Origin: a virus
Length of the DNA: 64,000 bases
Virus record (IMG/VR): IMGVR_UViG_3300036985_007703
Coordinates: 104,533-168,532 of that record
Reading direction: 5' to 3' (one strand)
Both the position numbers and the translations under genes were made by a program. Of the stretch, positions 1 to 39,122 are shown in pieces. Position 1 is the stretch's first letter. Each line of letters starts with the position of its first letter. The notes beneath the pieces were generated by a model. It saw only the letters and a program-made list of their open reading frames with translations, made no database searches and was not told the DNA's origin.

Positions 1-141
1 CAGCTCCACGCTGACCGTCTTCGTGGGCTTCGCCACCAGCTTCACGTCCGGGCCAAAGCTCGCGTTGCCCAGCTTTTCCGGCTTGAAGATGAACCGATAG
101 CGCCCCGTGAGGCGCTCTAGCAACATGCGCATGGTGCCCAT
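1..141 (-). CDS. Hypothetical protein, N-terminal part (runs off window); degenerate MRMLLERL leader
   Basis: Manual translation MGTMRMLLERLTGRYRFIFKPEK..., directly after the stop of the upstream gene. Confidence 0.6.
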   Translation of the reverse strand, partial: MGTMRMLLERLTGRYRFIFKPEKLGNASFGPDVKLVAKPTKTVSVEL

Positions 142-143
142 GG

Positions 144-716
144 TCACGCCCCTTCGATCCGCTGCGCGGCGACCACCTGCTCCTCGGCCGTCTCCAGATC
201 GCCCGCCCGCAACGCCTTGAGCGCCACGAGGGCCGCCCCCTGCGCCTTGGGGCTCCACTCAGCCATCCAGTTGTCCCCCGCGGCCACGTGCCCATGGAAC
301 TTCCGCATCGCGTTGAGCGCCTTAGCGTCCGCCGCCGTGAGGACCCATGCCTTATCCGCTGGCCCCATCCGGCCGCCCCACTTATTCCCCTCTGCCTCAA
401 TCATCGCGCGCATGCCAGCATAGTCCTGGCTCTCGCCGAAGGCCCGCGCAAGCCCCTTTGAGGAGTGCCGCTGGGCCGCGGGGACCTTCACCAAGATCCC
501 CTTGGGGGACCGCATGACCTTGAACTTCGGCTTTTCCGCTGCAGCCTGCCGCTTGATCCGCTTGCGCATGCCCTTGCTGGTCTTTACCCACTTGCCAAAG
601 ACCATCTTCTCGTCTGCGCCATGCTGCGCCAGCTCCTCGGGCGCGTGCTTCTGCGCCACGTCCCGCAGGGTCATGGCCTCTTGGAGATCCTCGATCAATC
701 GCCTCATGCTTCGCAT
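144..716 (-). CDS. Putative internal head protein (leader MRRLIEDLQE)
   Basis: ORF with AGGAG RBS, Lys-rich, shared leader. Confidence 0.6.
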   Translation of the reverse strand: MRSMRRLIEDLQEAMTLRDVAQKHAPEELAQHGADEKMVFGKWVKTSKGMRKRIKRQAAAEKPKFKVMRSPKGILVKVPAAQRHSSKGLARAFGESQDYAGMRAMIEAEGNKWGGRMGPADKAWVLTAADAKALNAMRKFHGHVAAGDNWMAEWSPKAQGAALVALKALRAGDLETAEEQVVAAQRIEGA

Positions 717-729
717 CGTCGTCTCCTGC

Positions 730-1185
730 TCACACGGCCTTGAGGCCGCTCGCAAAGGCGCGGTCCCGCGCCGGTTGTACCCGCTCCGTCCGGTAGGCCC
801 GGTTGAGGCTCTTGCGGATCACGCTCCGGTCCACGCTGCGCCCCACGTCCGCGAGGGCCGCGCGCATCCGGCCGTCGTCCGCCAGGGCCTCCGCGTCCCG
901 CAGGCGCCAGCGCGCCGTCCACCAGTAGCCCAGGGGGCTGCGCGTCCACCGCAGGAGGACCCACGGGGTCCCGCCCGCCCAGCGGGGGGCCCGCACCGTG
1001 AGGCGCACCTCGCCCCCGCCCAGGCGCCCCCGGATCGGGGCCCGCAGCCGCCCCTGCACCCAGCCCGCCGTGCGCTCCAGGGGCGCCGTCCACCGCGCAG
1101 GCGCATTGGGCCGCACACGCCCCCCGTGCGTCAGCACGGTCAGCACGTGGTCCAGGGCCAGCTGCACGGCGTCATCGGGGGTCAT
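730..1185 (-). CDS. Hypothetical protein
   Basis: ORF coupled by ATGA overlap. Confidence 0.55.
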   Translation of the reverse strand: MTPDDAVQLALDHVLTVLTHGGRVRPNAPARWTAPLERTAGWVQGRLRAPIRGRLGGGEVRLTVRAPRWAGGTPWVLLRWTRSPLGYWWTARWRLRDAEALADDGRMRAALADVGRSVDRSVIRKSLNRAYRTERVQPARDRAFASGLKAV

Positions 1186-1586
1186 CGGCGGCGCTTGTCC
1201 CGCATGCTATCCGGTGGCCAGTCCATGCGATCCGCCGGGTCGCTCGGCTGCTTGGGCTCCTCATGGCGCACGTCCACCGTGAGGCCGTCGCGCCCCGGCA
1301 GCGTGATGCGCTTGCCCAGCTTCCCGGCCAGCATCTTCTGGACCTTGGCCGCGGGGACGTCCGCGCGCTCCAGCGCGGCGCGGAGGTCATCCTCGTCTAC
1401 CGGCCACTGCTCGATGGCGCCCTCGCTGACATCGTAGATCTCCTCGTCGCTCAGGTCGGCCACCCACCCCTCGTCCGGGTCCAGCACGAAGGCCGTGACC
1501 TTGACCCGCGTGTGGCTCGTGACCGTCTCCATGCGCCCCGCGCGCCCCTCGACCAGCGCCCGCAGGCGGCTGCTCAGCGTGCCCAT
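1182..1586 (-). CDS. Putative internal head protein (leader ...RLRALVE-G)
   Basis: AGGAGG RBS, leader motif. Confidence 0.55.
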   Translation of the reverse strand: MGTLSSRLRALVEGRAGRMETVTSHTRVKVTAFVLDPDEGWVADLSDEEIYDVSEGAIEQWPVDEDDLRAALERADVPAAKVQKMLAGKLGKRITLPGRDGLTVDVRHEEPKQPSDPADRMDWPPDSMRDKRRR

Positions 1587-1599
1587 CGTCGCCTCCTTG

Positions 1600-2208
1600 C
1601 TACATCCCGCGGCGGTCGCCCGCTGCGTTCTTGCCCGCCGTCGTCAGGCTCAGCGCCCCCGCCTTGTTCTTAGCCAACATCTTCTTGGCCACCAGGGCAT
1701 CGATCTCGTCCGAGGTCACCTTGTTGTCCGCCAACAGCTCCTTCCGGTACGCCGACGTGAAGCCCATCATGGCCAGGATGCGCGCCTCGCGCTCCGTCAC
1801 GTCCGCGTTGCCCGGCAGCAGGGGCGCCAGCGCGCTCGGGTGCACGTAGATGCTCGCCGAGGTCCCGTGGTAGCCCGTGGTCCCCACGATCGCCGCCCCG
1901 TCCGGCGGCAAGGGATAGCGCTCCTGCACGGTGTCGATCGACCGGCTCGTAAACATGTTGGCCCCGCCCCAGGAGCCCTCGGAGGCCTTGTAAACCCCGG
2001 TCGCCAGGTTGACGACCACAGCAAAGCCCTTCTGGCCGTCCCCCGCGTAGGGGTTCAGGTCGACATCCGTGCGCGCCGACACGTGGATGTCCCGGCGCCC
2101 GTAGCCCACGCTCTTCAGGGCCTTCTGCAGGGGCGCCGGCAGCTCCTTCACCGCCACCGCCGTGCCGCCGCTAAGCCCCTCTTCCAGTCGCTCCAACAAC
2201 GCTCTCAT
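1600..2208 (-). CDS. Putative internal head protein (MRALLERLEE-G), possible C-terminal winged helix
   Basis: Start reassigned to ATG at 2208 (ATGA overlap). C-terminus EIDALVAKKMLAK..GALSLTTAG is wHTH-like. Confidence 0.6.
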   Translation of the reverse strand: MRALLERLEEGLSGGTAVAVKELPAPLQKALKSVGYGRRDIHVSARTDVDLNPYAGDGQKGFAVVVNLATGVYKASEGSWGGANMFTSRSIDTVQERYPLPPDGAAIVGTTGYHGTSASIYVHPSALAPLLPGNADVTEREARILAMMGFTSAYRKELLADNKVTSDEIDALVAKKMLAKNKAGALSLTTAGKNAAGDRRGM

Positions 2209-2441
2209 GGCTTCCTCACCACGCGGTCCATCCGGCCGCGCCGCTCCAGCTCCGCCAGCATCTCGTCCTTCGCCGCCCCCACCCAGACCTGGCCCGTGCT
2301 CGGCGACCACAGGATCTCCTCGCCCGCCGCGTAGGCCCCGCCGATCCCCGTGCCCGCGCGGGGCGCCGGTTTTAGCTCCATGGGCAGGCCCTCGCGGCGG
2401 ACCCGGAAACCCTCCTCCAAGCGGGTCAGCAGGGCGCGCAT
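2205..2441 (-). CDS. Putative internal head protein (MRALLTRLEE-G), paralog of 2447..2713
   Basis: Leader motif, shared AGT..G.AY..GEE.L..P...GA.KD core. Confidence 0.6.
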   Translation of the reverse strand: MRALLTRLEEGFRVRREGLPMELKPAPRAGTGIGGAYAAGEEILWSPSTGQVWVGAAKDEMLAELERRGRMDRVVRKP

Positions 2442-2446
2442 CGCCC

Positions 2447-2713
2447 TCAGTAGCCCCCGCCCATGAAGGCCTCGTCGTCCCGCGCCGCCTGGAACTCGCG
2501 CCACGCCTTGTCCTTGTTGGCGCCCGCCAGGATGAGCTTGTCGTTGGGGTAGTAGAGGACCTCCTCGCCCTTCTTGTAGGCCAGGCCCTTGGCATCGGTC
2601 CCCGCGGCCTTCGCCTTCATCAGGTAGGGGTCACGCCCGCGCCCGCCGCTGCGCCCCCCCCACTCCACGATCGTCCGCAGGTCCGCCGCCAAGGCCCGTA
2701 GGTTCCGTGCCAT
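2447..2713 (-). CDS. Putative internal head protein, paralog of 2205..2441
   Basis: AGGAG RBS at 2722-2726, leader LRALAADLRTIVE. Confidence 0.6.
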   Translation of the reverse strand: MARNLRALAADLRTIVEWGGRSGGRGRDPYLMKAKAAGTDAKGLAYKKGEEVLYYPNDKLILAGANKDKAWREFQAARDDEAFMGGGY

Positions 2714-2753
2714 CGTCATCGCTCCTTGCGCATGCGCATACGCAGCGCCGTTG

Positions 2754-3185
2754 TCACTTGTCCTCGACCAGCAGCCCCGGCTTGGGGCCGTCGACCACCG
2801 TGCGGTCCGCCGAGGGGCTGTCCTCACGGTCGGCCGCCTCCTGGTCCGCCACGTCCATGGCGCTCGTGTCCGCCCACTGGGGCTGCGCCGCATCGGGGTC
2901 CCCCGCCGGCGCCGCCACCGGCGCCCGGCTGAGGGCCGCCGTGACCGCCATGGCCACGGCCTCGCCCTGCTTGGCCGCCCGGCGCACCGCGATGGCCGCG
3001 CCCTGTTGCCCGTGGTCCGCGATGCCCTGCGCGAGGAGCCACGCCCCGACGAGCCCAAGGACCGTCAGCATGGTCTCCTCGTCGATGCGCTTTCCCGTCA
3101 GCGCGTTGGTCAGGTACGCCGCCACGCTGATGAGCATCACGATCAACTTCCGGCTCTCGATCTTCAGCTTCGCCAGCCACGTCAT
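2754..3185 (-). CDS. Holin-like membrane protein
   Basis: N-terminal KIESRKL followed by two hydrophobic segments and an acidic tail. Confidence 0.55.
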   Translation of the reverse strand: MTWLAKLKIESRKLIVMLISVAAYLTNALTGKRIDEETMLTVLGLVGAWLLAQGIADHGQQGAAIAVRRAAKQGEAVAMAVTAALSRAPVAAPAGDPDAAQPQWADTSAMDVADQEAADREDSPSADRTVVDGPKPGLLVEDK

Positions 3186-9930: not shown

Positions 9931-10623
9931 CTAGGCGCCCTGGGCCTGCCCCTGGGGCTTGCGCTTGGTGGGCACCTGGGCCTGCGCCTTCAGCGCCCGC
10001 CGCGTCTCGTGCCCCTTCTTTGCCGCCGCGCTGCGCTTGGCCGCCACCTGCTGCACCGCCAAGGCCTTGGCCGCCTTCTTCTGCGTGCGCTGCGCGCTGA
10101 TCAGCTTCGCCGCCATCGTGACGCGGCCCTCGCGCTGCTTCTCGGCCGGCTTCAACCGCTCCATCCCCATACGCCGCGAGGCGCCCTTGAGGTGCTGGCG
10201 GATGCCCTCCATCATGCTCTGGCGCTTGGTGCGCTTGGGCCGGAAGCCGTAGTGGCGCTTCACCTGGTTCTTCCAGAAGCGCATGGCCTGCTCGTAGTTC
10301 GGCTTGCCCTTGGCCACGATCCGCCCCTCGGTCGCCATGCGCGCCACCGCGCTCCACCAGAAGGCCGCGGAGTCTGGGAACGGGATCTGCGCGGGGTCGA
10401 TCAGGTACCACGGCGGCTGCAGGTAGCGCCCGTACTTGGCCTTGGCCTGCTCCATCGTCAGCTTCTCGGGCCGCGGGTTGCGCGTCGGCATGCGGGGCTG
10501 GATCGCGCGCTCCTCCAGCAGGGCCGCAAGGCGCCCCGCCAGCCCCTCGTTGCGTACGCGCATACGCAGGGGAGAGCCCGTGATCGCCCGCAGGGCCCCC
10601 GCGAGTTGCCCCGCCGTCCTCAC
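9931..10623 (-). CDS. Basic protein, possible DNA-binding internal core protein
   Basis: GTGA-coupled start, LAALLEE motif, Lys/Arg-rich C-terminus. Confidence 0.5.
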   Translation of the reverse strand: MRTAGQLAGALRAITGSPLRMRVRNEGLAGRLAALLEERAIQPRMPTRNPRPEKLTMEQAKAKYGRYLQPPWYLIDPAQIPFPDSAAFWWSAVARMATEGRIVAKGKPNYEQAMRFWKNQVKRHYGFRPKRTKRQSMMEGIRQHLKGASRRMGMERLKPAEKQREGRVTMAAKLISAQRTQKKAAKALAVQQVAAKRSAAAKKGHETRRALKAQAQVPTKRKPQGQAQGA

Positions 10624-22508: not shown

Positions 22509-24101
22509 TCAGAAGGTCGAGGAGACGCTCGGGAGCCCGCTGACGGTCACGACGCCGTAGTACTCCGGGCGGAGCAGCTTGGTGGCGAAGCGCGACGCGA
22601 AGCCCTTCTTGAAGGTGAAGGTGTGCGGGTCCTGCCAGGTCGGGGTGACCTGCAGCGGGATGTACGGGGCGAACACGTAGCCCGCGTCGAGGAAGTTCGA
22701 GCCGCGGAGCCCGACGAGCACCTTGTTGTCGTCCAGGAACGGATCCTGGTAGACGGTGAACTTCCGCATCATGGTGCCGACCATCTGGATGCCGTAGTCG
22801 CTCGTGAGCGGGCCGTAGCTCGGGGGCACGACCTGGCTGGCGCCCATGTCGAAGTCCTTGTGGCTCGTGAGCTGGCTGAGCAGCGACACGACGGCCGGGC
22901 TGGCGACGATGAAGTTCGCCGGGGCGCGCAGCGTGGTCTTGTGGATCTTCGCGGCCACCGCGTCGATCTGGGTCAGCAGCTCGCGGATGCTCTCGATCTC
23001 GCCCGGCACCGTCGGGCTGTAGCTGTAGGTCGCCTGGTGCGCAGCGCCGGCCACGAGGTCCGTGATGACCTTGCGGTCGATTTCGAGGGCGATCTCGTTG
23101 GAGAGGCCGGCGACCAGCTCGGCCTCCATGTTGAGGCCGTGGAGGGCGCGGAGGTCGTCCATGGCCTCCTGCGACCACGAGGCGCGCAGCTTGTAGGGCT
23201 CGGCCGTCACGGTCGACATGGCCATGTCCATGCTGATGCCCGGCACCGCGGCGCCGGAGGTCGTGTTCACGAGTTCCCAGTTCACATAGTACTGGGCGTA
23301 CACGACGTGGTTCGCGCTGAAGTTGCAGGGAGCGCCCGCAGCGGTCTGGGGCGTCAGGGTCCAGGCGCCCGTGGAGGCGGTGAAGGTGCCCACGGCGTGA
23401 CCGTGGTTGTCCGTGAGGGTCGTGGTGGCGCCCGTCGGATCGAGCGTGGCGACCTTGTTCTCGGAGCCCGCCTCGACCGTGCGGTAGTAGAGCTTCACCG
23501 AGAAGGTGCGCTGGCCGCTGGTGCCCGGCGTGCGGATCGGCTTCCAGGCCGGGATGCGGCAGTTGCCGGCGCCCTGGTTCAGGGTGCCGGTGGCCGCGCC
23601 GGTGTCCGTGCAGAGCACGTCGTAGTCGACGTACTCGGAGGCGTAGTTCTTCGCGAAGTTGCGGATGAGGGCGTCGCCCGCGCTCAGTTCGCCGTCGTAG
23701 CCCTGGCTGTAGGGGTAGTCCGTGATGCCGTTGGCCGGGATCTTGACGCCCTTGCGGCCCTCGTACTTGTAATCCCAGGTGAAGACCGCGCCGACCGGGG
23801 CCGACAGCGGCTGGACCGACGTGATCTGGTTGGCGATCAGGTTGGGGAACACGCGGCGGAGCACCGGGAAGATGTACTTGGTGAACGAGCCGACGTTCGT
23901 GCTCAGCGCATCCTCGCTGAGGTTCTTCATGTACGTGGCCTGGTTCTCCAGGAGGATGGCGGCGACGCCCTTGGTGTAGGCGTGGCGCACGCCGTCGGTG
24001 CCCTCCAGCAGTTGGCCCCACTTGCGGCTGAGCTGGGAGACGTAGGACTTGTCGGCGACGGTCTTCGCGCCGCTCTCGGTCAGGATGTTGCGAGCTTCCA
24101 T
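22509..24101 (-). CDS. Major capsid protein (T4 gp23 family)
   Basis: LRRVFPNLIANQI.SVQPL.APVG.VF, VTA..KLRA.WS.EA..DL.A.HG...EAEL, EI..EIDR, APYIPL. Confidence 0.96.
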   Translation of the reverse strand: MEARNILTESGAKTVADKSYVSQLSRKWGQLLEGTDGVRHAYTKGVAAILLENQATYMKNLSEDALSTNVGSFTKYIFPVLRRVFPNLIANQITSVQPLSAPVGAVFTWDYKYEGRKGVKIPANGITDYPYSQGYDGELSAGDALIRNFAKNYASEYVDYDVLCTDTGAATGTLNQGAGNCRIPAWKPIRTPGTSGQRTFSVKLYYRTVEAGSENKVATLDPTGATTTLTDNHGHAVGTFTASTGAWTLTPQTAAGAPCNFSANHVVYAQYYVNWELVNTTSGAAVPGISMDMAMSTVTAEPYKLRASWSQEAMDDLRALHGLNMEAELVAGLSNEIALEIDRKVITDLVAGAAHQATYSYSPTVPGEIESIRELLTQIDAVAAKIHKTTLRAPANFIVASPAVVSLLSQLTSHKDFDMGASQVVPPSYGPLTSDYGIQMVGTMMRKFTVYQDPFLDDNKVLVGLRGSNFLDAGYVFAPYIPLQVTPTWQDPHTFTFKKGFASRFATKLLRPEYYGVVTVSGLPSVSSTF

Positions 24102-24162: not shown

Positions 24163-25767
24163 TCATGACAGACCGGAGAGCTGCCGCATCATTGCGGGGT
24201 CCAGGCCGAACTCGGCCAAGTCGCCCGCGCCCGCCGTGCCTGCCCCGCGTGGGGCCACGGCCTCCTCCTCCAGCGTCGACGGCCGCGCCTGGGCCCGCGT
24301 CAGCTGCGCGCGCATGCGCTCCAGCTGCCCGTCGCCCATCGTCGTCCGCCCCCGCTGCCGCACCAGCCGATCGACCTCATCTGTGTTCGCAACGCCCTCT
24401 AGCAACCCAATCAACTCGCGCCCGTTCGTCAACCCTGCGACGCTCTCGGCCTTGTACGCCGCGAGGTCCGCCGCGGCCCGCGCCTCGGCTAGATCCCGCT
24501 GTAGCGTGGCGACGCGCTGCTCGGATCCCCGTGCGCGCGCCTCCAGGCCCTCGCCGCCTTCAACAGCCAGCTTCAACTGCATCTGCTTCTCGGCCAGTCT
24601 CTCGTGCAATTCCTGCGACTCCGCGAGGAGCCGCTTGCGCTCGCCCTCCCACCGCCGCGTGGCCTCGGCCAGCGGGTTGGGGGCAGGGGGGAGCTTCTCT
24701 AGCTGCCGCAGCACGCCGCGCACGCGCGTGCGCACCTCGGCCTCGTCCTCCAATAGCCCGGCGTCGGCCAGCAGCTCGCGCGCCATCGCCGCGTGGGGGT
24801 GCCCCGCCACGAGGCGCTCCGCGAGGAGCTGGTAGCCCGCCTCGCGGGCCACCCCGCGATAGGCCTCCGCCTGCTCGCGCAGGCCCGTGATCTCCGTGCG
24901 CTGCGCCTGCAGGGCCGCCGCCACGTGGTCCTCAGGGACCGCCGGCAGGTAGGGCCGCAGGAGCTGCGCCACCGTGGCCAGCACCGCGCCCGCGCCGTCC
25001 GCCTCGGCCTCCTCGCGCAGCTCCGCGCGCACCTCGGCCCGCAGCCCCTGCAGGGCCTCGACGAGCCCGCGCTCGAAGCGCTCGCGCTCCTCCTCGCGGG
25101 CCGCCGCCACGGCCGCCTCGACGTCCGTGCTCGCCGCCGCCTGGAGTTGCGCCTGCGCCCGCGCCATCGCCTTGTCCATCAGGCCCTCCTCCAGGGCCGC
25201 GAGGGCCTCGGGGATCTGCGCCTGCAGGGCGTCGGTCGCGTAGGGCGTGTTCACATCCTCGTTGAAGATCTCGGGGTACGCCGACTTCATCGCGGGGTCC
25301 GCCACGAAGTCCCAGGTCTTGAGGTTGTAGTCCTCGCACACGTCCTCGCCGTCCCCGCTCTCGCTCGGCTTCGTGCTCCCGAAGCCCCGCGAGCTGACGC
25401 CGATCTCCACCCCGTGGCGGATCAGCGCCGCGAGCGTGCGGCCGTTCGGCGTGTCGAGGATCTCGGCGGCCCCCAGCACGCGCCCATCGTCGGCGATGGA
25501 CGCCTCGGTGATCAGCGCCGCCGCGCGCGTCAGCTTGGTCTTCCCGTCGTCCGGGTGGTCCAGCTCGGCCAGCACGCGCCGCCGCTTGATGTCCTCCTGG
25601 AGCTTCTTGACCTCGCGCTCATAGATCGCGCGGGGATAGCGCCGGCCGTTCTGCGTCGGGGTGTCGTAGCGCCCAAACTCGCCGCGGGCCACGAGCTTGC
25701 CCGTGCCCTTGTCCTCGGTCAGGGTGAACGTCGTGGTGATCGTCTCAGTCAGCAGCTTGCCGCTCAT
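24163..25767 (-). CDS. Prohead protease (T4 gp21 type) fused to coiled-coil scaffold
   Basis: NGRRYP, ELDHP, ILDTPNG, GVSSRGFGS, DFVADPA, then long helical C-terminus. Confidence 0.92.
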   Translation of the reverse strand: MSGKLLTETITTTFTLTEDKGTGKLVARGEFGRYDTPTQNGRRYPRAIYEREVKKLQEDIKRRRVLAELDHPDDGKTKLTRAAALITEASIADDGRVLGAAEILDTPNGRTLAALIRHGVEIGVSSRGFGSTKPSESGDGEDVCEDYNLKTWDFVADPAMKSAYPEIFNEDVNTPYATDALQAQIPEALAALEEGLMDKAMARAQAQLQAAASTDVEAAVAAAREEERERFERGLVEALQGLRAEVRAELREEAEADGAGAVLATVAQLLRPYLPAVPEDHVAAALQAQRTEITGLREQAEAYRGVAREAGYQLLAERLVAGHPHAAMARELLADAGLLEDEAEVRTRVRGVLRQLEKLPPAPNPLAEATRRWEGERKRLLAESQELHERLAEKQMQLKLAVEGGEGLEARARGSEQRVATLQRDLAEARAAADLAAYKAESVAGLTNGRELIGLLEGVANTDEVDRLVRQRGRTTMGDGQLERMRAQLTRAQARPSTLEEEAVAPRGAGTAGAGDLAEFGLDPAMMRQLSGLS

Positions 25768-25966: not shown

Positions 25967-27034
25967 TCAGTTTCCCGACTCGTCCTCGTCGTCCTCGTCG
26001 TCCTCGTCGATGTCCTCGCCGAGGTAATCGAAGTCGATCTCGCCGTCCTCGATCGACTCCATGATGCGCGTCACGAGGTTGAAGCACGGGGCCAGCGTGG
26101 CCACGAACTCGTCCTCGTTCAGGGCGTCCTCGACCAGGGTGCCCGCGTTGGCGCGATCGATCACGGGGATCAGGGCCTCTTCGAGCACGGCGTCAACCTC
26201 GGGGGAGCCGTACATCTCGCTCATGAGGGCGAAGATGTTGTTCAGGCGCTCGACGATCTCCGCCCGGCTGCCGGCCTGCACGCGGCTCTCGTGGAGCACG
26301 CTGCGGAGGTCGTTCGCGATCTCGCTGTCGGCCGAGGCCCCGAGGCTGCTGAAGCCACGGACGGGCCCGCGATTGCCGGCGCCGAGGAGCTTGCGGATCG
26401 GCTTGGCCGCGATCCGGGCCGCGAGCTTGTTGCCCTTCGCGCCCATCTTGGCCGCGCGGACCTTCTGCACCTTCTTGTACCAGGCCTTGGCCTGCATCTT
26501 CTTGGTCGAGCGCTTGATCTGGCTCTTGTGCGTGCGGCGGTACTGCTTCGCTAGGAGGCGGGCCTTGCGCCCCTTGGTGTCCGTGCGGCGGTGCTTCGTG
26601 ACCATCTTGCCGCTCTTCGCCCCGAAGGTGCGGAAGGCCGAGCCCTCTTCGAGCCGGCCCTTGGCCCGCAGGAGCATCTCCACGACCTCCTGCGCACGCG
26701 CGGTCAGCGCGGCGTCGCCCTCGGGGAGGTCCTTCTTGCCCAGCTCCTCGAGGAGGGCGTCGATGTCCCCGGCGTCCATGCTCTCGAAGGGGAGGGCCGC
26801 GATCCGGTTGAACAGCTCGCGCGTCACCACGGGGCCGTCGATCGGGTCATGGTCCTCGGTCTGCGTTGTGCCGCTCACCGCGATGGTGTCGAGGCGCTTG
26901 ACGCCGCCGCCCACCACGCTGTCCTCGGTGAGGACGTTCATCCCCGCGAGGGTGCGCTGGTCCTCGACCATCGTCGAGAGCCCCAGGGCCGCCATATCCT
27001 GCTCGAACGTGCTGTCAATGATCCGCTGTGCCAT
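25967..27034 (-). CDS. Prohead core protein (T4 gp67/gp68-like)
   Basis: Between portal and protease, central Lys/Arg-rich block, acidic ends, many L-x-E sites. Confidence 0.6.
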   Translation of the reverse strand: MAQRIIDSTFEQDMAALGLSTMVEDQRTLAGMNVLTEDSVVGGGVKRLDTIAVSGTTQTEDHDPIDGPVVTRELFNRIAALPFESMDAGDIDALLEELGKKDLPEGDAALTARAQEVVEMLLRAKGRLEEGSAFRTFGAKSGKMVTKHRRTDTKGRKARLLAKQYRRTHKSQIKRSTKKMQAKAWYKKVQKVRAAKMGAKGNKLAARIAAKPIRKLLGAGNRGPVRGFSSLGASADSEIANDLRSVLHESRVQAGSRAEIVERLNNIFALMSEMYGSPEVDAVLEEALIPVIDRANAGTLVEDALNEDEFVATLAPCFNLVTRIMESIEDGEIDFDYLGEDIDEDDEDDEDESGN

Positions 27035-27902
27035 CGTCGCCGTCTCCTTGTTCGTTGGGGTCGCGGCCCCGCAGTGCGAGGTAGCCCGCGACGATCACCA
27101 TGTGCCTGGCCCGCTCCGCGCACGTCCCATGCGCCCTTGCCATCCGCGCGACATCCCGTGGGACGTCCTCCAGCATCAACCGTTCGGCACGTGTGAGCGC
27201 GGCCACCATGGCCTCCGCCTCGCCGATCAACGAACTCCTGATGGCGTCCAGGTCCGCTTCGCCCTTATCAAATCGCACGGATCGGCCCTCGTCAAGGATT
27301 TGGGCGTACGCCGCCTTGAGCCCCTCGACGGCCATCCGCAATTCGCCCACTGGGATCCCCGTGTCGGGGCGCCCCGCGAAGGTCGCGGGATCGGGGACGC
27401 GCGCCTCGCGCGCCCGCACCTCGCCCCACATGCGCCGGCGGATGCGCTCCGCGTCCGCCAGGTACCAGCGCTGCCACGCCGCGTCCTGCGCGGCCTCGAT
27501 CTCCGCCACCGCGTCCACGAGCCAATAGCGCTCGCCCGCCTCGATCAGGTGGGCGAGGTTGCGCATGCGCATGCGCGAGGCCTCCCCCGCGCACCGCCCC
27601 TCCGCGACGTCCCGCACGAGGGCCCGCACCTGCCCCGCCACGTAGCGCGGGACCTCGGCCTCGCCGATCGCCGCCACCGCGTAGGGCCCGTGCCCCTGCA
27701 GGGCCACCGCGCCGCCCACGCAGTCGTAGTCCACGCGCTCGAAGCGCTCCTCGTCGTCGACCACCACCGCGCGGTCCACCCACGTCGCGACGGCCCGCAC
27801 GGGGCGCTGGAGCGCCGCGCTCGCCGCCCGCTCGATCTGGTCGATCAGCGCCTCGTAGCTCCCCGCCCGCATCTCCGCGAGCTGCGCCTCGGTGATGTAC
27901 AT
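27015..27902 (-). CDS. Hypothetical head-assembly protein
   Basis: ORF directly after portal. Confidence 0.6.
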   Translation of the reverse strand: MYITEAQLAEMRAGSYEALIDQIERAASAALQRPVRAVATWVDRAVVVDDEERFERVDYDCVGGAVALQGHGPYAVAAIGEAEVPRYVAGQVRALVRDVAEGRCAGEASRMRMRNLAHLIEAGERYWLVDAVAEIEAAQDAAWQRWYLADAERIRRRMWGEVRAREARVPDPATFAGRPDTGIPVGELRMAVEGLKAAYAQILDEGRSVRFDKGEADLDAIRSSLIGEAEAMVAALTRAERLMLEDVPRDVARMARAHGTCAERARHMVIVAGYLALRGRDPNEQGDGDDGTADH

Positions 27903-27905
27903 CGC

Positions 27906-29762
27906 TTAATCCCTCCGCCCATGGCCCGCCGCCCGCCGATCCCGGCGCGCTTGCCGAGCCTGTGCCTCTAGCGTCCGATCGATCCCTTCGACCCGCGCCG
28001 CCATGCGCTCCGTGAGCCGCGTGACGCGCCCGTGCTCGCTCAGCAAGCGGTCCAGCCGCGCCTTCACCGCCGCGTCGCCCTCCAGGGCGCGCCCGCGGGG
28101 CTCCTCCGCCTCGGGGACCGCCCCCTCGGCCGCCCCCATCTCCGGTGGGAGCCCGCCCTCGGCGCCCATCGGCCCCATCACGGTCTCCGGGTACTCCCGG
28201 ATGATCTCCGCCTGCGTCGCCGCGTCGCCCTTCATGGCCCCGCGCTTGTCCTTGCGCGCCTCGTCCGTCACGTAGATGGCCTCGTCCTGCGAGAAGCCGA
28301 ACACGTGCTGGAGGATCCAGGGCTGCGGCACCAACTCGCCGAGGCCCTGCGCGAGCTGCGCCTGCTGCAGCCGCACCTCCAGCTGTGCCAGCTCGAAGAT
28401 GTAGCTCGGCACCGTCATGTGGAGATCGAAGGCCACCGCGTCGGGGTCGATCCCCAGCGCCGCGAGGTGGACCCGGCAGATCTGCTTCACACCGTTGCGC
28501 ACCTCGCGCTGCACCCGCATGGCCGCCCGCGCGAACCGCACGTCGTCCCCGCTCGCGATGCGCCCCGTGGTCTCCTCCATCCCGAGGAGGCGCTTGGGGG
28601 TCTGCGCCGCGGCGAGCACCTTGTTGCGGAAATACTCCAGAATGTCGAGGTCCTGCGAGTCCACGCCCTGCAGCACGTCGACGCGCGTCGAGTCCTTGCC
28701 CCCGCGCGTCGGCAGCCAGAGGTCCTCCAGCTGCCCCTGCACGTTGTAGCGGAAGTCCAGCTGCCCCGTGCTCGGGTTGAAGACCTTCTTGCGCGTGTAC
28801 TGCTGCTGGATCTTCTTGACGTGCGCCCAACCCTCGGTTGGGGGCATGTCCCCGGTATCAATATAGAATGCGTTGCGCGAGGGCCCGCGCGTCAGCTTGG
28901 TGACCAGCGCGGTGTCCTCCATCATCATGAGCCGCTTCCAGGCCCAGCGCCCGCCGTCCAGCACGCTCACGCCGTAGACCGCCGTGGTGTCCTTCTGCCG
29001 CAACCGCCAGTGGACGATCTCCCAGGGCTCGAACACCACGCACCCGTTGACGGGCTTGCGCTGGTCGCGCGCCACCTTCAACGCCGCGTCGAACTCGCGC
29101 TGCGTGAGCTTGAACTGCCCCGTGGGGTCCTGGATGAAGCCGAGGGTCGTCCCGTGGTTGTCCTGCACGCGCCGCATCGTGGGGGGCGCCAGGAAGTTGA
29201 TCCCGACGACGCCCATCTTGCCCACGAGGACCTCGCCGAAGCGGTTGCCGTACTTGCCCAGCGTGCGGGCGAGCCCGTGGACGTCGTCCTCCAGGCGCAG
29301 GCGCCGCGTGAGGAGGTCCTCCAGCACGTCGCGCACCAGCTTGTCCTTCGAGGAGGCCCAGATGCTGCGCCCCGTGTTGCTGTCCGGGATCGAGGCGTCG
29401 TCCGCGTAGAGCGTGAAGATCGACGAGGTGAGGTCGTAGTCGTCCATGTCCTCGGCGTCGCGGTACCGCTGCATGAGGTCGTCGGAGAGCTGGAGGGCCT
29501 GCGCGACGGGGCTGTTCGCGTCGAAGTTGCCGCCGGTCTGCAGGGCCAGGGCCCCCACGTAGCCGTCCTTGGCAAGGAGCGGGTTGTCCTGGTGCTTGCC
29601 CGCGATCTCGGCGCCCTGGGTCACGCCGCGGGGCGCCGTGGGGCCCTCGTGGGCCGGTCCGCTCCCGCGCCCCAGCCATCCCCGGATCTTGTCCCAGAGG
29701 CCCCCGCCCTTGTCCCCGGCTCCGGTCGGCTGCTGCTGTTGCTGCTGCTTGGGATCCGCCAT
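27906..29762 (-). CDS. Portal protein (T4 gp20 family)
   Basis: YR..EDMD, KYGN.F, IVHWRL, YG.SVL, L.MMED...R.P.R.AFYIDTG.MP, EDLWLPTRGG, YFR.K...A...PK. Confidence 0.93.
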   Translation of the reverse strand: MADPKQQQQQQPTGAGDKGGGLWDKIRGWLGRGSGPAHEGPTAPRGVTQGAEIAGKHQDNPLLAKDGYVGALALQTGGNFDANSPVAQALQLSDDLMQRYRDAEDMDDYDLTSSIFTLYADDASIPDSNTGRSIWASSKDKLVRDVLEDLLTRRLRLEDDVHGLARTLGKYGNRFGEVLVGKMGVVGINFLAPPTMRRVQDNHGTTLGFIQDPTGQFKLTQREFDAALKVARDQRKPVNGCVVFEPWEIVHWRLRQKDTTAVYGVSVLDGGRWAWKRLMMMEDTALVTKLTRGPSRNAFYIDTGDMPPTEGWAHVKKIQQQYTRKKVFNPSTGQLDFRYNVQGQLEDLWLPTRGGKDSTRVDVLQGVDSQDLDILEYFRNKVLAAAQTPKRLLGMEETTGRIASGDDVRFARAAMRVQREVRNGVKQICRVHLAALGIDPDAVAFDLHMTVPSYIFELAQLEVRLQQAQLAQGLGELVPQPWILQHVFGFSQDEAIYVTDEARKDKRGAMKGDAATQAEIIREYPETVMGPMGAEGGLPPEMGAAEGAVPEAEEPRGRALEGDAAVKARLDRLLSEHGRVTRLTERMAARVEGIDRTLEAQARQARRDRRAAGHGRRD

Positions 29763-37560: not shown

Positions 37561-37847
37561 CCGTTTGCGAGGGCGCGGCGGAGGGCGGCGACGGTGGCGT
37601 CCCAGGCGGCGCCGTGGAGGTCCAGGGGGACGGCCACGGCATCCGCGGGGGTCAGGGGGTGGACGCGGACCCCGCCGGGGGCCTCCGCCACGAGGGCGGC
37701 GCGGCCGTCGAGAGTGACGAGGGCGGTGGCGTGGCCGTCCATGGGGCCGCTCCACTGGACGGTGGCCCCGGCGGCCTTGAGGACGCTGGCGAGGGTGGGG
37801 GCGTGCAGGGCGCGCTCCGTGAGGGCCTGGATCGAGGGGATCGTCAT
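37557..37847 (-). CDS. Hypothetical protein (leader ...IQALTE)
   Basis: ATGA-coupled ORF. Confidence 0.5.
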   Translation of the reverse strand: MTIPSIQALTERALHAPTLASVLKAAGATVQWSGPMDGHATALVTLDGRAALVAEAPGGVRVHPLTPADAVAVPLDLHGAAWDATVAALRRALANG

Positions 37848-38491
37848 GGGGGAGCCTCCGTCTTGATGGTCTGTGCAACCTCTGCGAGCCACGCACCGAG
37901 GGCCGCGCCGACCGCCGACGGGGCCAGGGGCCAGCGGTCCACACCCGGCAGGGCCGCGGGCGCCGGCTGGGGCAGGGCCGCCCCGTCGATGCTCACCTTG
38001 AGCTTGGGCGCGCCGCTCCCCGTGCGGGGCAGCGCGAGGGCTGCGTCGACGCGGATGCGGGCGGCCCCCGCGTACCACGCGGCCATCACGCTGAGGCGCC
38101 GGGTCAGGTCGTCCTTGCCCAGCTCGACCTCGCCGACCACGCGCACAGCGCCGCGCGGCCCGACGGCGGCCTCCAGGACCCGCCCGGCGACGGCCGCCGC
38201 GACCTCCATCTGCCCGTCGTCCCACTCGCGGGCCATCCCCGCCTGCAGGGCCGCCTCGGCCGCCTGCGCCTCGGGGTGCTGATGGCGCCACGCCGCGTTG
38301 CCCTGGCGGTCCGCCTGCTCGCCCCCGAGATCCGCTACGCGATCGAGGTAGCTGGTGTAATAGAAGTCCCCGCGCACGGGGTCGGTGGGCGCCTTGGCCG
38401 CCGCCGCCACGAGGGCGCGGGCCACGGCGCGCTCCACGCTCCGCCGCATGCGGTAGGCCTCCTCCAGACGCTGCAAGAGCGTGCGCATCAT
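37844..38491 (-). CDS. Putative internal head protein (MRTLLQRLEE-A)
   Basis: Leader motif. Confidence 0.55.
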   Translation of the reverse strand: MMRTLLQRLEEAYRMRRSVERAVARALVAAAAKAPTDPVRGDFYYTSYLDRVADLGGEQADRQGNAAWRHQHPEAQAAEAALQAGMAREWDDGQMEVAAAVAGRVLEAAVGPRGAVRVVGEVELGKDDLTRRLSVMAAWYAGAARIRVDAALALPRTGSGAPKLKVSIDGAALPQPAPAALPGVDRWPLAPSAVGAALGAWLAEVAQTIKTEAPP

Positions 38492-38892
38492 GCGGCCTCA
38501 AAGCCTTTCTGCGCGGCCTGCGCGAGGGCCTGCTGCACCGCCGCCCGCACCGCGTCGGCCGCCGCCTGGGGCGCCACCGGCCACCCATCCCCCACCGGCA
38601 CGCGCGCCATCAGCGGCGCGGGACGCACCCCGTAGCGGCCCACCCACGCCTCGGCCACCCATGGCCCGTCCGGGGCCATGCGCACCTGCACCACGAGGGT
38701 CGAGCGCTCCCCGCGCGAGCGCGCCAGGCGCGTCCCCACCTCGCCGCCCGCCCGCGCCTTGATCTCCACGCGCACCTTGCACAGCGCGGGCTCGTCGACC
38801 ACCACCTCCACCGCCCCCACCGGGACAGCGCGCTGCAGCGCCGCCTCGATCCCCATCGCCTCCTCTAGCCGTCGCAGCAAGGTGCGCATCAT
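38488..38892 (-). CDS. Putative internal head protein (MRTLLRRLEE-A)
   Basis: GGAGG RBS, leader motif. Confidence 0.55.
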   Translation of the reverse strand: MMRTLLRRLEEAMGIEAALQRAVPVGAVEVVVDEPALCKVRVEIKARAGGEVGTRLARSRGERSTLVVQVRMAPDGPWVAEAWVGRYGVRPAPLMARVPVGDGWPVAPQAAADAVRAAVQQALAQAAQKGFEAA

Positions 38893-38900
38893 GTCCTCCG

Positions 38901-39122
38901 TCACTCGCCGCGCGGGGCGGCCTCGATGTCCACCTCGGTGTACCAGCACGCGCAGAGCCGCTGCCCGTTCGGGGCCGTCCCCACCGGGGCACTCCCCGTC
39001 AGGGTGGGGTGCGCCCGCGCGCAGGCCACCCGGCATTGATCCGCCCCGCGCGGGGGAGGCATCGCCCCGCAGGCCCCCGCCAGCAGCCCCCCCGCGAGCA
39101 GGAGCCCCCAGCGCTCACGCAT
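38901..39122 (-). CDS. Small Cys-rich lipoprotein
   Basis: MRERWGLLLAGGLLAGA-C lipobox. Confidence 0.55.
   Translation of the reverse strand: MRERWGLLLAGGLLAGACGAMPPPRGADQCRVACARAHPTLTGSAPVGTAPNGQRLCACWYTEVDIEAAPRGE

What the first reader, a model, noticed from the sequence alone, without database searches (positions are those of the whole stretch)
144..2713. Unrelated small proteins share an MRxLLxRLEE leader: candidate new capsid-targeting/cargo-delivery signal
Seen: N-termini MRRLIEDLQE|A (144..716), SRLRALVE|G (1182..1586), MRALLERLEE|G (1600..2208), MRALLTRLEE|G (2205..2441), LRALAADLRTIVE|W (2447..2713), plus MRTLLQRLEE|A and MRTLLRRLEE|A at 37.8-38.9 kb and a degenerate MRMLLERLTG at 1..141. 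The protein bodies are mostly unrelated. Known: T4 internal proteins carry a 10-aa capsid-targeting sequence ending in Glu that gp21 removes at (L/I)-x-E, and this phage encodes a gp21-type protease. Inference: this is an independent targeting peptide that loads a variable cargo set (anti-defence or takeover proteins) into heads for injection.
Basis: partly seen in the sequence, partly recalled or inferred. Interest (0 to 1): 0.85.

Follow-up and report, generated by a model that had tools for sequence, protein, structure and literature searches.

The report
T4-style head-loading tags on phage cargo
An uncultured, GC-rich T4-like phage starts about 29 otherwise unrelated, mostly basic small proteins with one short helical tag that ends in the cut site of its head protease, so they are most likely loaded into the capsid, clipped and injected as in phage T4, though no experiment shows this.

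Summary
All eight six-frame matches to the strict motif lie on the coding strand directly after a start Met. Codons differ between copies, so selection acts on the peptide. My gene call gives 29 tagged genes in four late-gene clusters, 8.5% of this 168.5-kb IMG/VR record. Two forms occur, M-R-x-L-I-E|G/A and M-R-x-L-L-x-R-L-E-E|G/A.

Bodies are unrelated except one pair and are basic (median pI 9.5 against 5.8). A 176-kb relative with 51% GC and 52% tube identity carries the same tag on a nearly different, also basic, gene set. More distant relatives lack it.

The phage has a T4-type head module: portal, a Peptidase_S77 protease fused to a coiled coil, and a gp23-type capsid protein. The tag has the length and architecture of the T4 capsid-targeting sequence MKTYQEFIAE|A. 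Similar sites sit at the protease N-terminus, the protease/coiled-coil junction and in genes at the gp67/gp68 position.

Best reading (0.62): a T4-type capsid-targeting and cleavage leader, not an independent invention. Cargo includes a conserved zincin-like protein and a winged-helix protein that occurs untagged elsewhere. Packaging and cleavage are untested.

The scan has noted similar leader sets in other uncultured T4-like phages. I class this as a new variant of a known kind.

The parts
1..147 (-). 5' end of leader gene B4 (genome 104008-104679, 223 aa; the rest lies before the window). N-terminus is MTMGTMRMLLERLTG, a degenerate long-form tag.
   Evidence: A second tag-like site, GMRAMTE|GV, is at residue 122.
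144..716 (-). Leader gene B5, 190 aa, MRSMRRLIEDLQE|AM. The body has pI 10.1. An internal tag-like site GMRAMIE|AE ends at residue 107 (counted from this start).
   Evidence: No Pfam or PHROG hit.
1182..1586 (-). Leader gene B6, 134 aa, MGTLSSRLRALVE|GR.
   Evidence: No Pfam or PHROG hit.
1600..2208 (-). Leader gene B7, 202 aa, MRALLERLEE|GL. In the model the tag is a helix (residues 2-13), followed by a beta-rich domain and a C-terminal winged helix.
2205..2441 (-). Leader gene B8, 78 aa, MRALLTRLEE|GF. It overlaps B7 by 4 nt.
   Evidence: In the close relative G004 the tag reads MRALLTHLEE.
2447..2719 (-). Leader gene B9, 90 aa, MTMARNLRALAADLRTIVE|WG. Its body is the only one in the set with a BLASTP match at E<=0.01 to another body (B8).
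9931..10563 (-). Possible leader gene C1, 210 aa, MRVRNEGLAGRLAALLEE|RA, body pI 11.6. It is the weakest member of the set.
37844..38491 (-). Leader gene D1, 215 aa, (M)MRTLLQRLEE|AY.
38488..38904 (-). Leader gene D2, MRTLLRRLEE|AM. GGAGG lies just before the ATG ATG pair, so the true start is probably near 38889-38892.
24163..25767 (-). Prohead protease (Peptidase_S77, gp21 type) fused to a coiled-coil, scaffold-like C-terminal half. It carries LLTE|T at residues 5-8, ALAALEE|GL at the domain junction (cut after residue 194) and LIGLLE|GV at residue 457.
22509..24101 (-). gp23-type major capsid protein. The N-terminal extension of about 70 aa holds KWGQLLE|GT (matching T4 KWKPLLE|GEG) and KNLSE|DA near the position of the T4 cut.
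25967..27902 (-). Two genes of unknown family between portal and protease, the position of T4 gp67 and gp68: 25967-27034 and 27015-27902. They hold internal tag-like sites GRLEE|GS and RMRMRNLAHLIE|AG. The first has a basic middle and an acidic tail.
27906..29762 (-). T4-type portal protein (Portal_T4).

Best explanation
The shared N-terminus is a T4-type capsid-targeting and processing leader.

Proposed mechanism (all steps inferred):
1. Each tagged protein is made late, together with tail and head proteins.
2. Its 8-19-residue amphipathic helix docks onto the prohead core. Hydrophobic residues sit at P10/P7/P6/P3 in the 10-mer, or P6/P3/P2 in the short form. The core here includes a protease-scaffold fusion protein.
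3. After the shell closes, the gp21-family serine protease cuts after the final Glu, at [L/I/M]-x-E followed by G or A.
4. The mostly basic mature proteins stay with the packaged DNA and enter the host with it.

Shown here: the tag, its peptide-level conservation, its cut-site-like end, the matching protease, similar sites in head-core proteins, late-operon position, basic unrelated bodies, and the same tag on a different basic gene set in a distant relative.

Inferred only: docking, cleavage, packaging, injection and what the cargo does.
For: 1. Tag reality. All 8 strict matches sit at ORF starts on the coding strand, with synonymous codon variation and N-terminal enrichment (p down to 7e-11).

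2. Cut-site character. The tag ends in L/I/M-x-E, and 21 of 26 have G or A next, against a background of 0.23 (p = 1e-9).

3. Matching enzyme. Peptidase_S77 scores 66 bits. The ELxHP and GVSSRGxGS motifs align with T4 gp21. The rest of the head module is T4-like.

4. Same site type in head proteins. It occurs at the protease N-terminus (LLTE, aligned with T4 LLIE), at the protease/coiled-coil junction (ALEE|G), in the genes at the gp67/68 position, and in the capsid-protein propeptide.

5. T4 comparison, read from NC_000866. ipII and ipIII begin MKTYQEFIAE|A, gp67 MEGLIE|A, gp21 ..QLLIE|T, gp22 ..QLIAE|A, gp24 ..ELLRE|S. The review PMC9026906 places T4 targeting at tag residues 4 and 7 and processing at residues 8 and 10. 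In this tag, positions 1, 2, 4, 5, 8 and 10 are the constant ones.

6. Basic bodies. Median pI is 9.5 against 5.8 for other proteins (p = 1.3e-5). The relative G001 repeats this: 9.5 against 5.6 (p = 1e-4).

7. Out-of-sample test. The DNA pattern for M-[RK..]-x-[LIM]-[LIM]-E gives 18 hits on the coding strand of G001, none on the other strand and 0 and 1 in the controls. Near the tube gene, relatives with 44-56% tube identity give 49 plus-strand hits and no minus-strand hits. No plus-strand hit (1 on the minus strand) occurs in the loci with 28-39% tube identity.

8. Modularity.
- The B7 body occurs with the tag, with another N-terminal helix, or with none.
- Only 3 of 29 tagged genes have a homologue in G001, against 64 of 213 others (p = 0.027).
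- The second module of A6 is a separate tagged gene in relatives and keeps its tag internally here.

9. Late-operon context. The tagged genes lie between the tube and tape-measure genes and after the baseplate genes, with 4-nt start/stop overlaps.
Against: - There is no direct evidence of packaging, cleavage or injection. No cultured relative exists (capsid protein at most 35% identical to any phage record), so no virion proteomics are available.
- In the relative G001 the residue after L-I-E is usually K or R, not G or A, so the exact cut position is uncertain there.
- Turnover against the close relative G004 is higher for tagged genes (12 of 25 against 64 of 211) but not significantly so (p = 0.11).
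- Twenty-nine cargo species is far above T4's handful.
- Some members (C1, B1, B4, A7) fit the consensus poorly, and B1, B4 and A7 lack the final Glu.
- Homology of a 10-residue tag to the T4 sequence cannot be established.
Confidence: 0.62

Rival explanations
1. The tag is a shared N-terminal amphipathic helix with another common job. It could bind a chaperone or assembly factor, drive oligomerisation, or associate with a membrane. On this reading the late proteins carrying it are not packaged in the head.
For: The tag is predicted helical. In G001 it runs on as M-R-x-L-I-E-K/R-L/K without a small residue after the Glu. The reported block also holds an amidase endolysin and a conserved membrane-like small protein, so a link to lysis or the envelope is conceivable.
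Against: This does not explain the G/A preference after the final Glu. It does not explain the same site at the protease N-terminus, at its domain junction and in head-core genes. It does not explain the strong basic bias of the bodies in two distant genomes. The tag has no hydrophobic stretch that would suit a secretion signal or membrane anchor.
Confidence: 0.15
2. The tag is only a protease-removable propeptide. It would give zymogen-like control or timing of activity and would carry no targeting information. The proteins would reach the prohead, or not, by other means.
For: The most conserved positions include P3 and P1, which are the processing determinants in T4. One cargo is a zincin-like enzyme for which latency would make sense.
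Against: Conservation extends 6-10 residues upstream (M1, R2, L4, L5), beyond what gp21-type cleavage is reported to need. The protease is expected to act inside the closed prohead, so its substrates must already be there. That expectation comes from established T4 biology (PMC5694885).
Confidence: 0.1
3. The tag loads cargo into the tail rather than the head, like the N-terminal packing signals of extracellular contractile injection systems.
For: The reported block lies directly after the sheath and tube genes and before the tape-measure gene. The larger block follows the baseplate genes.
Against: The phage has a 1108-aa tape-measure-sized gene, and in tailed phages that protein fills the tube lumen (my own knowledge). 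The tag ends in the head protease's motif, and the same motif occurs in head proteins. Two tagged genes lie beside the head and packaging module.
Confidence: 0.05
4. The tag is the recognition sequence of a modifying enzyme, RiPP-like, as an earlier scan note proposed for a shared tag in phage RB43.
Against: No radical-SAM gene was found in this genome, in the complete relative G001 or in G004, while all 14 control genomes scored. The one enzyme whose known specificity fits the tag is the head protease.
Confidence: 0.04

Closest known systems
Phage T4 capsid-targeting sequence of internal proteins IPI, IPII, IPIII and Alt, removed by prohead protease gp21 (Mullaney & Black 1996; reviews PMC3012670, PMC9026906, PMC5694885)
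   Same: Both are short N-terminal tags (10 residues in the long form) on otherwise unrelated, mostly basic proteins. Both have Met, then a basic residue at position 2, hydrophobic residues at positions 4 and 8, and Glu at position 10 followed by a small residue. Both go with a gp21-family protease and a T4-type portal and capsid protein. The cargo set varies between relatives.
   Different: The sequence differs: MRxLLxRLEE or MRxLIE against MKTYQEFIAE. There are about 29 tagged genes (8.5% of the genome) against a handful in T4. They lie in blocks inside the tail and baseplate operons. The protease is fused to a coiled-coil scaffold-like domain. Nothing is shown experimentally.
N-terminal propeptides of T4 head-core proteins gp67, gp21, gp22 and gp24
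   Same: The short form M-R-x-L-I-E|A/G is almost the T4 gp67 N-terminus MEGLIE|A and resembles gp21 ..QLLIE|T. The protease N-terminus here (LLTE) aligns with the T4 LLIE.
   Different: In T4 these are essential assembly proteins. Here the tag sits mainly on accessory proteins with no family match.
Propeptide-bearing head and ejection proteins of giant phages phiKZ, 201phi2-1 and SPN3US (PMC5694885, PMC9026906)
   Same: Many head-internal proteins are processed after Glu by a gp21-related protease. Propeptides are thought to target the proteins to the prohead, and several cut sites can occur per protein.
   Different: The giant-phage motif is A/S/G-x-E, and propeptides are often over 100 residues and not one shared short tag. 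Here there is one short consensus tag with L/I/M at P3.

Membership tests
T4-type capsid-targeting sequence / internal-protein system | Short N-terminal peptide (about 10-20 aa) shared by otherwise unrelated proteins | tested here: met
   There are 29 genes with leaders of 8-19 aa. Bodies are unrelated by BLASTP apart from one pair.
T4-type capsid-targeting sequence / internal-protein system | Leader ends in the gp21 cleavage motif (L/I-x-E, cut after Glu) | tested here: met
   In the profile, P3 is L or M, P2 is I or E and P1 is E. P1' is G or A in 21 of 26. This is sequence-level evidence only.
T4-type capsid-targeting sequence / internal-protein system | Genome encodes a gp21-family (Peptidase_S77) prohead protease within a T4-type head module | tested here: met
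   PF03420 scores 66 bits. The His and Ser motifs align with T4 gp21. Portal_T4 and Gp23 hits are also present.
T4-type capsid-targeting sequence / internal-protein system | Sequence homology of the leader to the T4 sequence MKTYQEFIAE | tested here: inconclusive
   The length is the same and residue classes match at positions 1, 2, 4, 8 and 10, but only M1 and E10 are identical. Ten residues cannot establish homology.
T4-type capsid-targeting sequence / internal-protein system | Cargo proteins are basic, DNA-associated head-internal proteins | tested here: met
   Median body pI is 9.5 against 5.8 (p = 1.3e-5). G001 repeats this. DNA association itself was not tested.
T4-type capsid-targeting sequence / internal-protein system | Physical incorporation into proheads or virions and removal of the leader | not testable with these tools
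   The phage is uncultured and no proteomics exist. No cultured relative has a capsid protein more than 35% identical.
T4-type capsid-targeting sequence / internal-protein system | Cargo repertoire varies between related phages while the leader is kept | tested here: met
   Three of 29 tagged genes are shared with G001, against 64 of 213 others (p = 0.027), yet G001 has more than 15 tagged genes of its own. Against the close relative G004 the excess turnover is not significant (p = 0.11).
RiPP-like tag read by a radical-SAM enzyme | A radical-SAM/SPASM enzyme encoded with the tagged genes | tested here: not met
   PF04055 is absent from G000, G001 (complete) and G004, and present in all 14 controls.
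Sec/Tat signal peptide | Hydrophobic h-region after a basic n-region | tested here: not met
   The leaders are charged and amphipathic (for example MRALLERLEE), with no hydrophobic run. This is read directly from the sequence.
M34-like zincin metallopeptidase (for cargo A9, genome 45708-47066) | HExxH plus a downstream Glu ligand on a zincin fold | tested here: inconclusive
   HELGH and EEFAE are invariant in 10 homologues. The model has mean pLDDT 70. Residues 213-424 match the lethal-factor catalytic domain (Z 9.0, rmsd 4.3, 168 aligned) and PPEP-2 (Z 8.3). There was no Pfam hit, no Foldseek hit at E<=0.001, and no PDB sequence match below E 0.44 (one chance-level hit).

The most novel reading that the evidence does not exclude
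A whole clade of uncultured T4-like phages uses one short helical address tag to pre-load dozens of exchangeable, mostly basic effector proteins into the capsid. The clade is defined here by at least about 44% tube identity and spans 44-68% GC in the loci examined (the window's own genome is about 70%). The cargo would include a conserved zincin-type peptidase and DNA-binding proteins. The same protein families are expressed untagged from early-gene-like arrays in other large mobile elements. On this reading 'inject it ready-made' and 'express it early' are interchangeable delivery routes, and the tag would be a sequence-only marker for finding injected anti-defence or takeover proteins in metagenomes.
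Probability: 0.35. Interest if true: 0.75.

Novelty: new variant of a known kind. Interest (0 to 1): 0.58.

Why it matters
If the tag works as in T4, it marks by sequence alone which proteins of an uncultured phage are carried in the capsid and delivered with the DNA. These are the first phage proteins the host meets, and they are prime candidates for anti-defence and takeover functions.

Here that set is unusually large, at 29 genes, and consists almost entirely of proteins with no known family. It includes a clade-conserved zincin-like enzyme.

The case also extends the T4 capsid-targeting principle to a deep-branching lineage with a protease-scaffold fusion. It offers a second, different consensus tag that could be tested as a protein-packaging handle.

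Tried and rejected
- Pfam and PHROGs gave no family for the 16 tagged proteins scanned (one sub-threshold PriA-like hit for D1); the only clear hit was Amidase_2 for an untagged neighbour.
- A blastn search of the first 8 kb against cultured phages found nothing.
- A tblastn search with the capsid protein found only distant T4-like phages, at most 35% identical.
- Complex prediction of the protease-scaffold protein with B7 returned no verdict: score 0.00 and the controls were not run. I do not use it either way.
- Foldseek against the PDB gave no match at E<=0.001 for the B7 and A9 models. A PDB sequence-profile search with A9 gave nothing useful.
- A scan of all IMG/VR for the strict 10-residue tag as a DNA pattern found only 11 places, two of them in close relatives. 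The strict form is therefore rare and lineage-specific and could not be used to map the clade.
- DNA- or RNA-level explanations (a recombination box, a translation-initiation element) are rejected. Codons vary, and the amino acids persist in relatives with 44-68% GC.
- A diverged paralogue family is rejected. Bodies range from 68 to 443 aa without similarity, and the B7 body occurs without the tag.
- A radical-SAM tag system is rejected because no such enzyme is present.
- A single-sequence search for relatives with the capsid protein reached only close relatives. An alignment of tube proteins was needed to go further.
Full report
**Setting.** The window is the last 64 kb of a 168,532-bp IMG/VR virus record. 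The record has about 70% GC, and nearly all genes are on the minus strand. No cultured phage is close. A blastn search found nothing, and the capsid protein is at most 35% identical to any phage record.

- The strict pattern R.L[LI].[RD]L[EQT][EG] occurs 8 times in the six-frame translation of the whole genome. All 8 are on the coding strand, each directly after Met at the start of an ORF.
- The copies use different codons for Arg, Leu and Glu, and their upstream DNA is unrelated. Selection therefore acts on the peptide.
- GGAGG-type ribosome-binding sites lie 4-10 nt before most of the called starts, so those starts are supported.
- Looser versions of the core are 4-9 times more frequent in the first 18 residues than elsewhere in proteins, with p from 6e-6 to 7e-11.

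**Full extent.** My own gene call gives 242 genes. After curation, 29 of them carry the tag.
- 17 lie at genome 41.8-54.7 kb, downstream of the baseplate genes.
- 9 lie at genome 101.8-107.3 kb, between the tube and tape-measure genes. This is the reported block and reaches window 2719.
- One lies at window 9931-10563.
- Two lie at window 37844-38904.

Together they make up 14.4 kb, or 8.5% of the genome. Many overlap their neighbours by 4 nt, so they are embedded in late structural operons.

Two forms of the tag occur. The short form is M-(x2-3-M)-R/S-x-L/M-I/L-E, followed by G or A. The 10-residue form is M-R-x-L-L-x-R-L-E-E, followed by G or A. In the A9 family both forms occupy the same alignment columns, ahead of an invariant AAPAPGSK, so they are versions of one element. 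The residue after the last Glu is G or A in 21 of 26 cases, against a background of 0.23 (p = 1e-9).

**Bodies.**
- BLASTP of the bodies against each other at E<=0.01 finds only one related pair, B8 and B9. A looser module-level search also links A1 to A6.
- None of the 16 tagged proteins scanned has a credible Pfam or PHROG family; the one hit, for D1, is far below the curated cut-off.
- The bodies are strikingly basic. Median pI is 9.5 against 5.8 for the other proteins, and 62% against 17% exceed pI 9 (p = 1.3e-5).

**The head module and the tag.**
- The phage has a T4-type portal (PF07230), a gp23-type capsid protein (PF07068) and a Peptidase_S77 protease.
- The protease aligns with T4 gp21 through the ELxHP and GVSSRGxGS motifs. 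It is fused to a 340-residue coiled-coil half.
- Tag-like sites occur where a head protease would be expected to act:
  - at the protease's own N-terminus (LLTE, aligned with T4 LLIE)
  - at the junction of the protease and the coiled coil (ALAALEE|GL)
  - near the C-terminus of the coiled coil (LIGLLE|GV, conserved in G001)
  - in the two unknown genes at the T4 gp67/gp68 position (GRLEE|GS and RNLAHLIE|AG)
  - in the capsid-protein propeptide (KWGQLLE|GT, matching T4 KWKPLLE|GEG)

  These are seen.
- From the T4 record itself I read ipII and ipIII as MKTYQEFIAE|A, gp67 as MEGLIE|A, gp21 as ..QLLIE|T, gp22 as ..QLIAE|A and gp24 as ..ELLRE|S.
- The review PMC9026906 reports that T4 targeting depends mainly on tag residues 4 and 7, and processing on residues 8 and 10. 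In the present 10-mer the constant positions are 1, 2, 4, 5, 8 and 10.
- The architecture is therefore the same as in T4, although only M1 and E10 are identical.

**Relatives.**
- A search with the tube protein found close relatives (96-99% identity), a middle group (44-56%, with 44-68% GC) and distant ones (28-39%).
- Within 10 kb of the tube gene, the middle group has 49 plus-strand matches to M[RK]x[LIM][LIVM]E at ORF starts and none on the minus strand. The distant group has no plus-strand match and one on the minus strand.
- In the complete 176-kb relative G001 (51% GC), the corresponding DNA pattern hits 18 times on the coding strand and never on the other strand. The reversed-pattern control gives 0 and 1.
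- G001's tagged proteins are again basic, with median pI 9.5 against 5.6 (p = 1e-4).
- G001 has the same protease-scaffold fusion, which starts MPNLLIE.
- Only 3 of the 29 tagged genes of this phage have a homologue in G001, against 64 of 213 other genes (p = 0.027). The tag is kept while the cargo is almost wholly exchanged.
- Against the close relative G004 (median protein identity 94%), 12 of 25 tagged genes are absent or below 80% identity, against 64 of 211 others. The difference points the same way but is not significant (p = 0.11).

**Modularity.**
- B7 has 68 homologues. In the alignment the same body appears behind the MRxLLERLE tag, behind a different N-terminal helix, or with no extension at all.
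- Untagged copies lie in arrays of small genes on contigs of 200-270 kb. Their neighbours include DUF7447, DUF932, PcfJ, a helicase and an AcrVA2-like gene.
- The second module of A6 begins after an internal, complete tag (MTKMQSLIRRLEE|AT). It is homologous to stand-alone tagged genes in two relatives.
- Similar internal tags occur in A1, B4, B5 and in the gene at genome 48038-48706.
- Tag plus body therefore behaves as the unit of evolution, and some genes may be two-module precursors.

**Cargo hints.**
- The B7 model has mean pLDDT 86.7. It shows the tag as a helix, then a beta-rich domain without a clear match, then a C-terminal winged helix (Z 7.9 to MarR, rmsd 2.9, 67 aligned).
- A9 is the one tagged protein conserved across G000, G004 and G001. 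In G001 it starts MGVLIEE. It has invariant HELGH and EEFAE motifs.
- In the A9 model (pLDDT 70), the C-terminal domain resembles M34-type zincins (Z 9.0 and 8.3). This is suggestive, not proven.

**Rivals.**
- A DNA- or RNA-level element and a diverged paralogue family are excluded by the points above.
- A radical-SAM recognition tag, raised by an earlier scan note on another phage, has no enzyme to go with it here.
- Tail-lumen loading is hard to reconcile with a tape-measure protein and with the head-protease motif.
- The main surviving alternative is a shared helix with some other binding role. It does not explain the cut-site end, the sites in head proteins or the basic bias.

**Verdict.** This is most likely the T4 capsid-targeting and processing mechanism in a deep-branching, uncultured T4-like clade. 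It has its own consensus tag and a much larger, rapidly exchanged cargo set than T4. It is not an independent invention as far as the data can tell. All mechanistic steps remain inferred. Earlier notes of this scan describe comparable tag sets in other uncultured T4-like phages, so the phenomenon seems to recur.

Noticed in passing
window 29782-32736 (-): The 984-aa ORF next to the portal gene has a weak large-terminase match at its N-terminus and an intein splicing domain with an HNH endonuclease inside (Pfam Intein_splicing and HNH_3). It looks like an intein-interrupted terminase gene.
   Followed up: no
L038 (G004:C1:22940-27325): In the close relative G004 the protease-scaffold gene matches in two pieces, residues 1-73 and 73-534. 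They are separated by about 1.1 kb within one 947-aa open frame. This suggests an intein or other in-frame insertion in the prohead protease gene that this genome lacks.
   Followed up: no
genome 2-570 and 167959-168506 (window 63427-63974): The two ends of the record encode the same proteins (100% and 97% identity). The contig ends therefore overlap by about 0.55 kb. The genome may be closed or terminally redundant, although it is labelled linear and 83% complete.
   Followed up: partly
L011:8342-9007 (genome 103342-104007), just before the window: An Amidase_2 endolysin-like gene sits inside the tagged-gene block. In T4, ipII and ipIII lie directly beside the endolysin gene e (NC_000866 65416-66997). 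This may be coincidence.
   Followed up: partly
window 2754-3185 (-): A 143-aa protein with a hydrophobic N-terminal segment and a conserved GQGI(A/S)DHG(A/Q)QGAA motif lies within the tagged block. It is conserved in distant relatives (L017 11507-11857, L018 13057-13422) and has no family match.
   Followed up: no
window 27015-27902 (-), residues about 109-122; also upstream of A8 and B9: The GCGCATGCGCATGCGC palindrome, noted elsewhere in this genome, lies just before the ribosome-binding sites of two tagged genes. Inside the gene at 27015-27902 it is read as RMRMR, directly ahead of a tag-like NLAHLIE|AG. That gene may be two modules or may have an internal start.
   Followed up: partly
genome 76-90 kb (before the window): There is an array of paralogous genes of about 300-350 aa, and three larger genes share a 150-aa N-terminal domain (all-against-all BLASTP). 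It looks like a diversified fibre or receptor-binding cassette.
   Followed up: no
L022 and L036 (contigs of 219 kb and 212 kb): Untagged homologues of B7 lie in long arrays of small unknown genes with DUF7447, DUF932, PcfJ, a ResIII helicase and an AcrVA2-like gene. This gene company is reminiscent of anti-defence islands of large mobile elements.
   Followed up: partly
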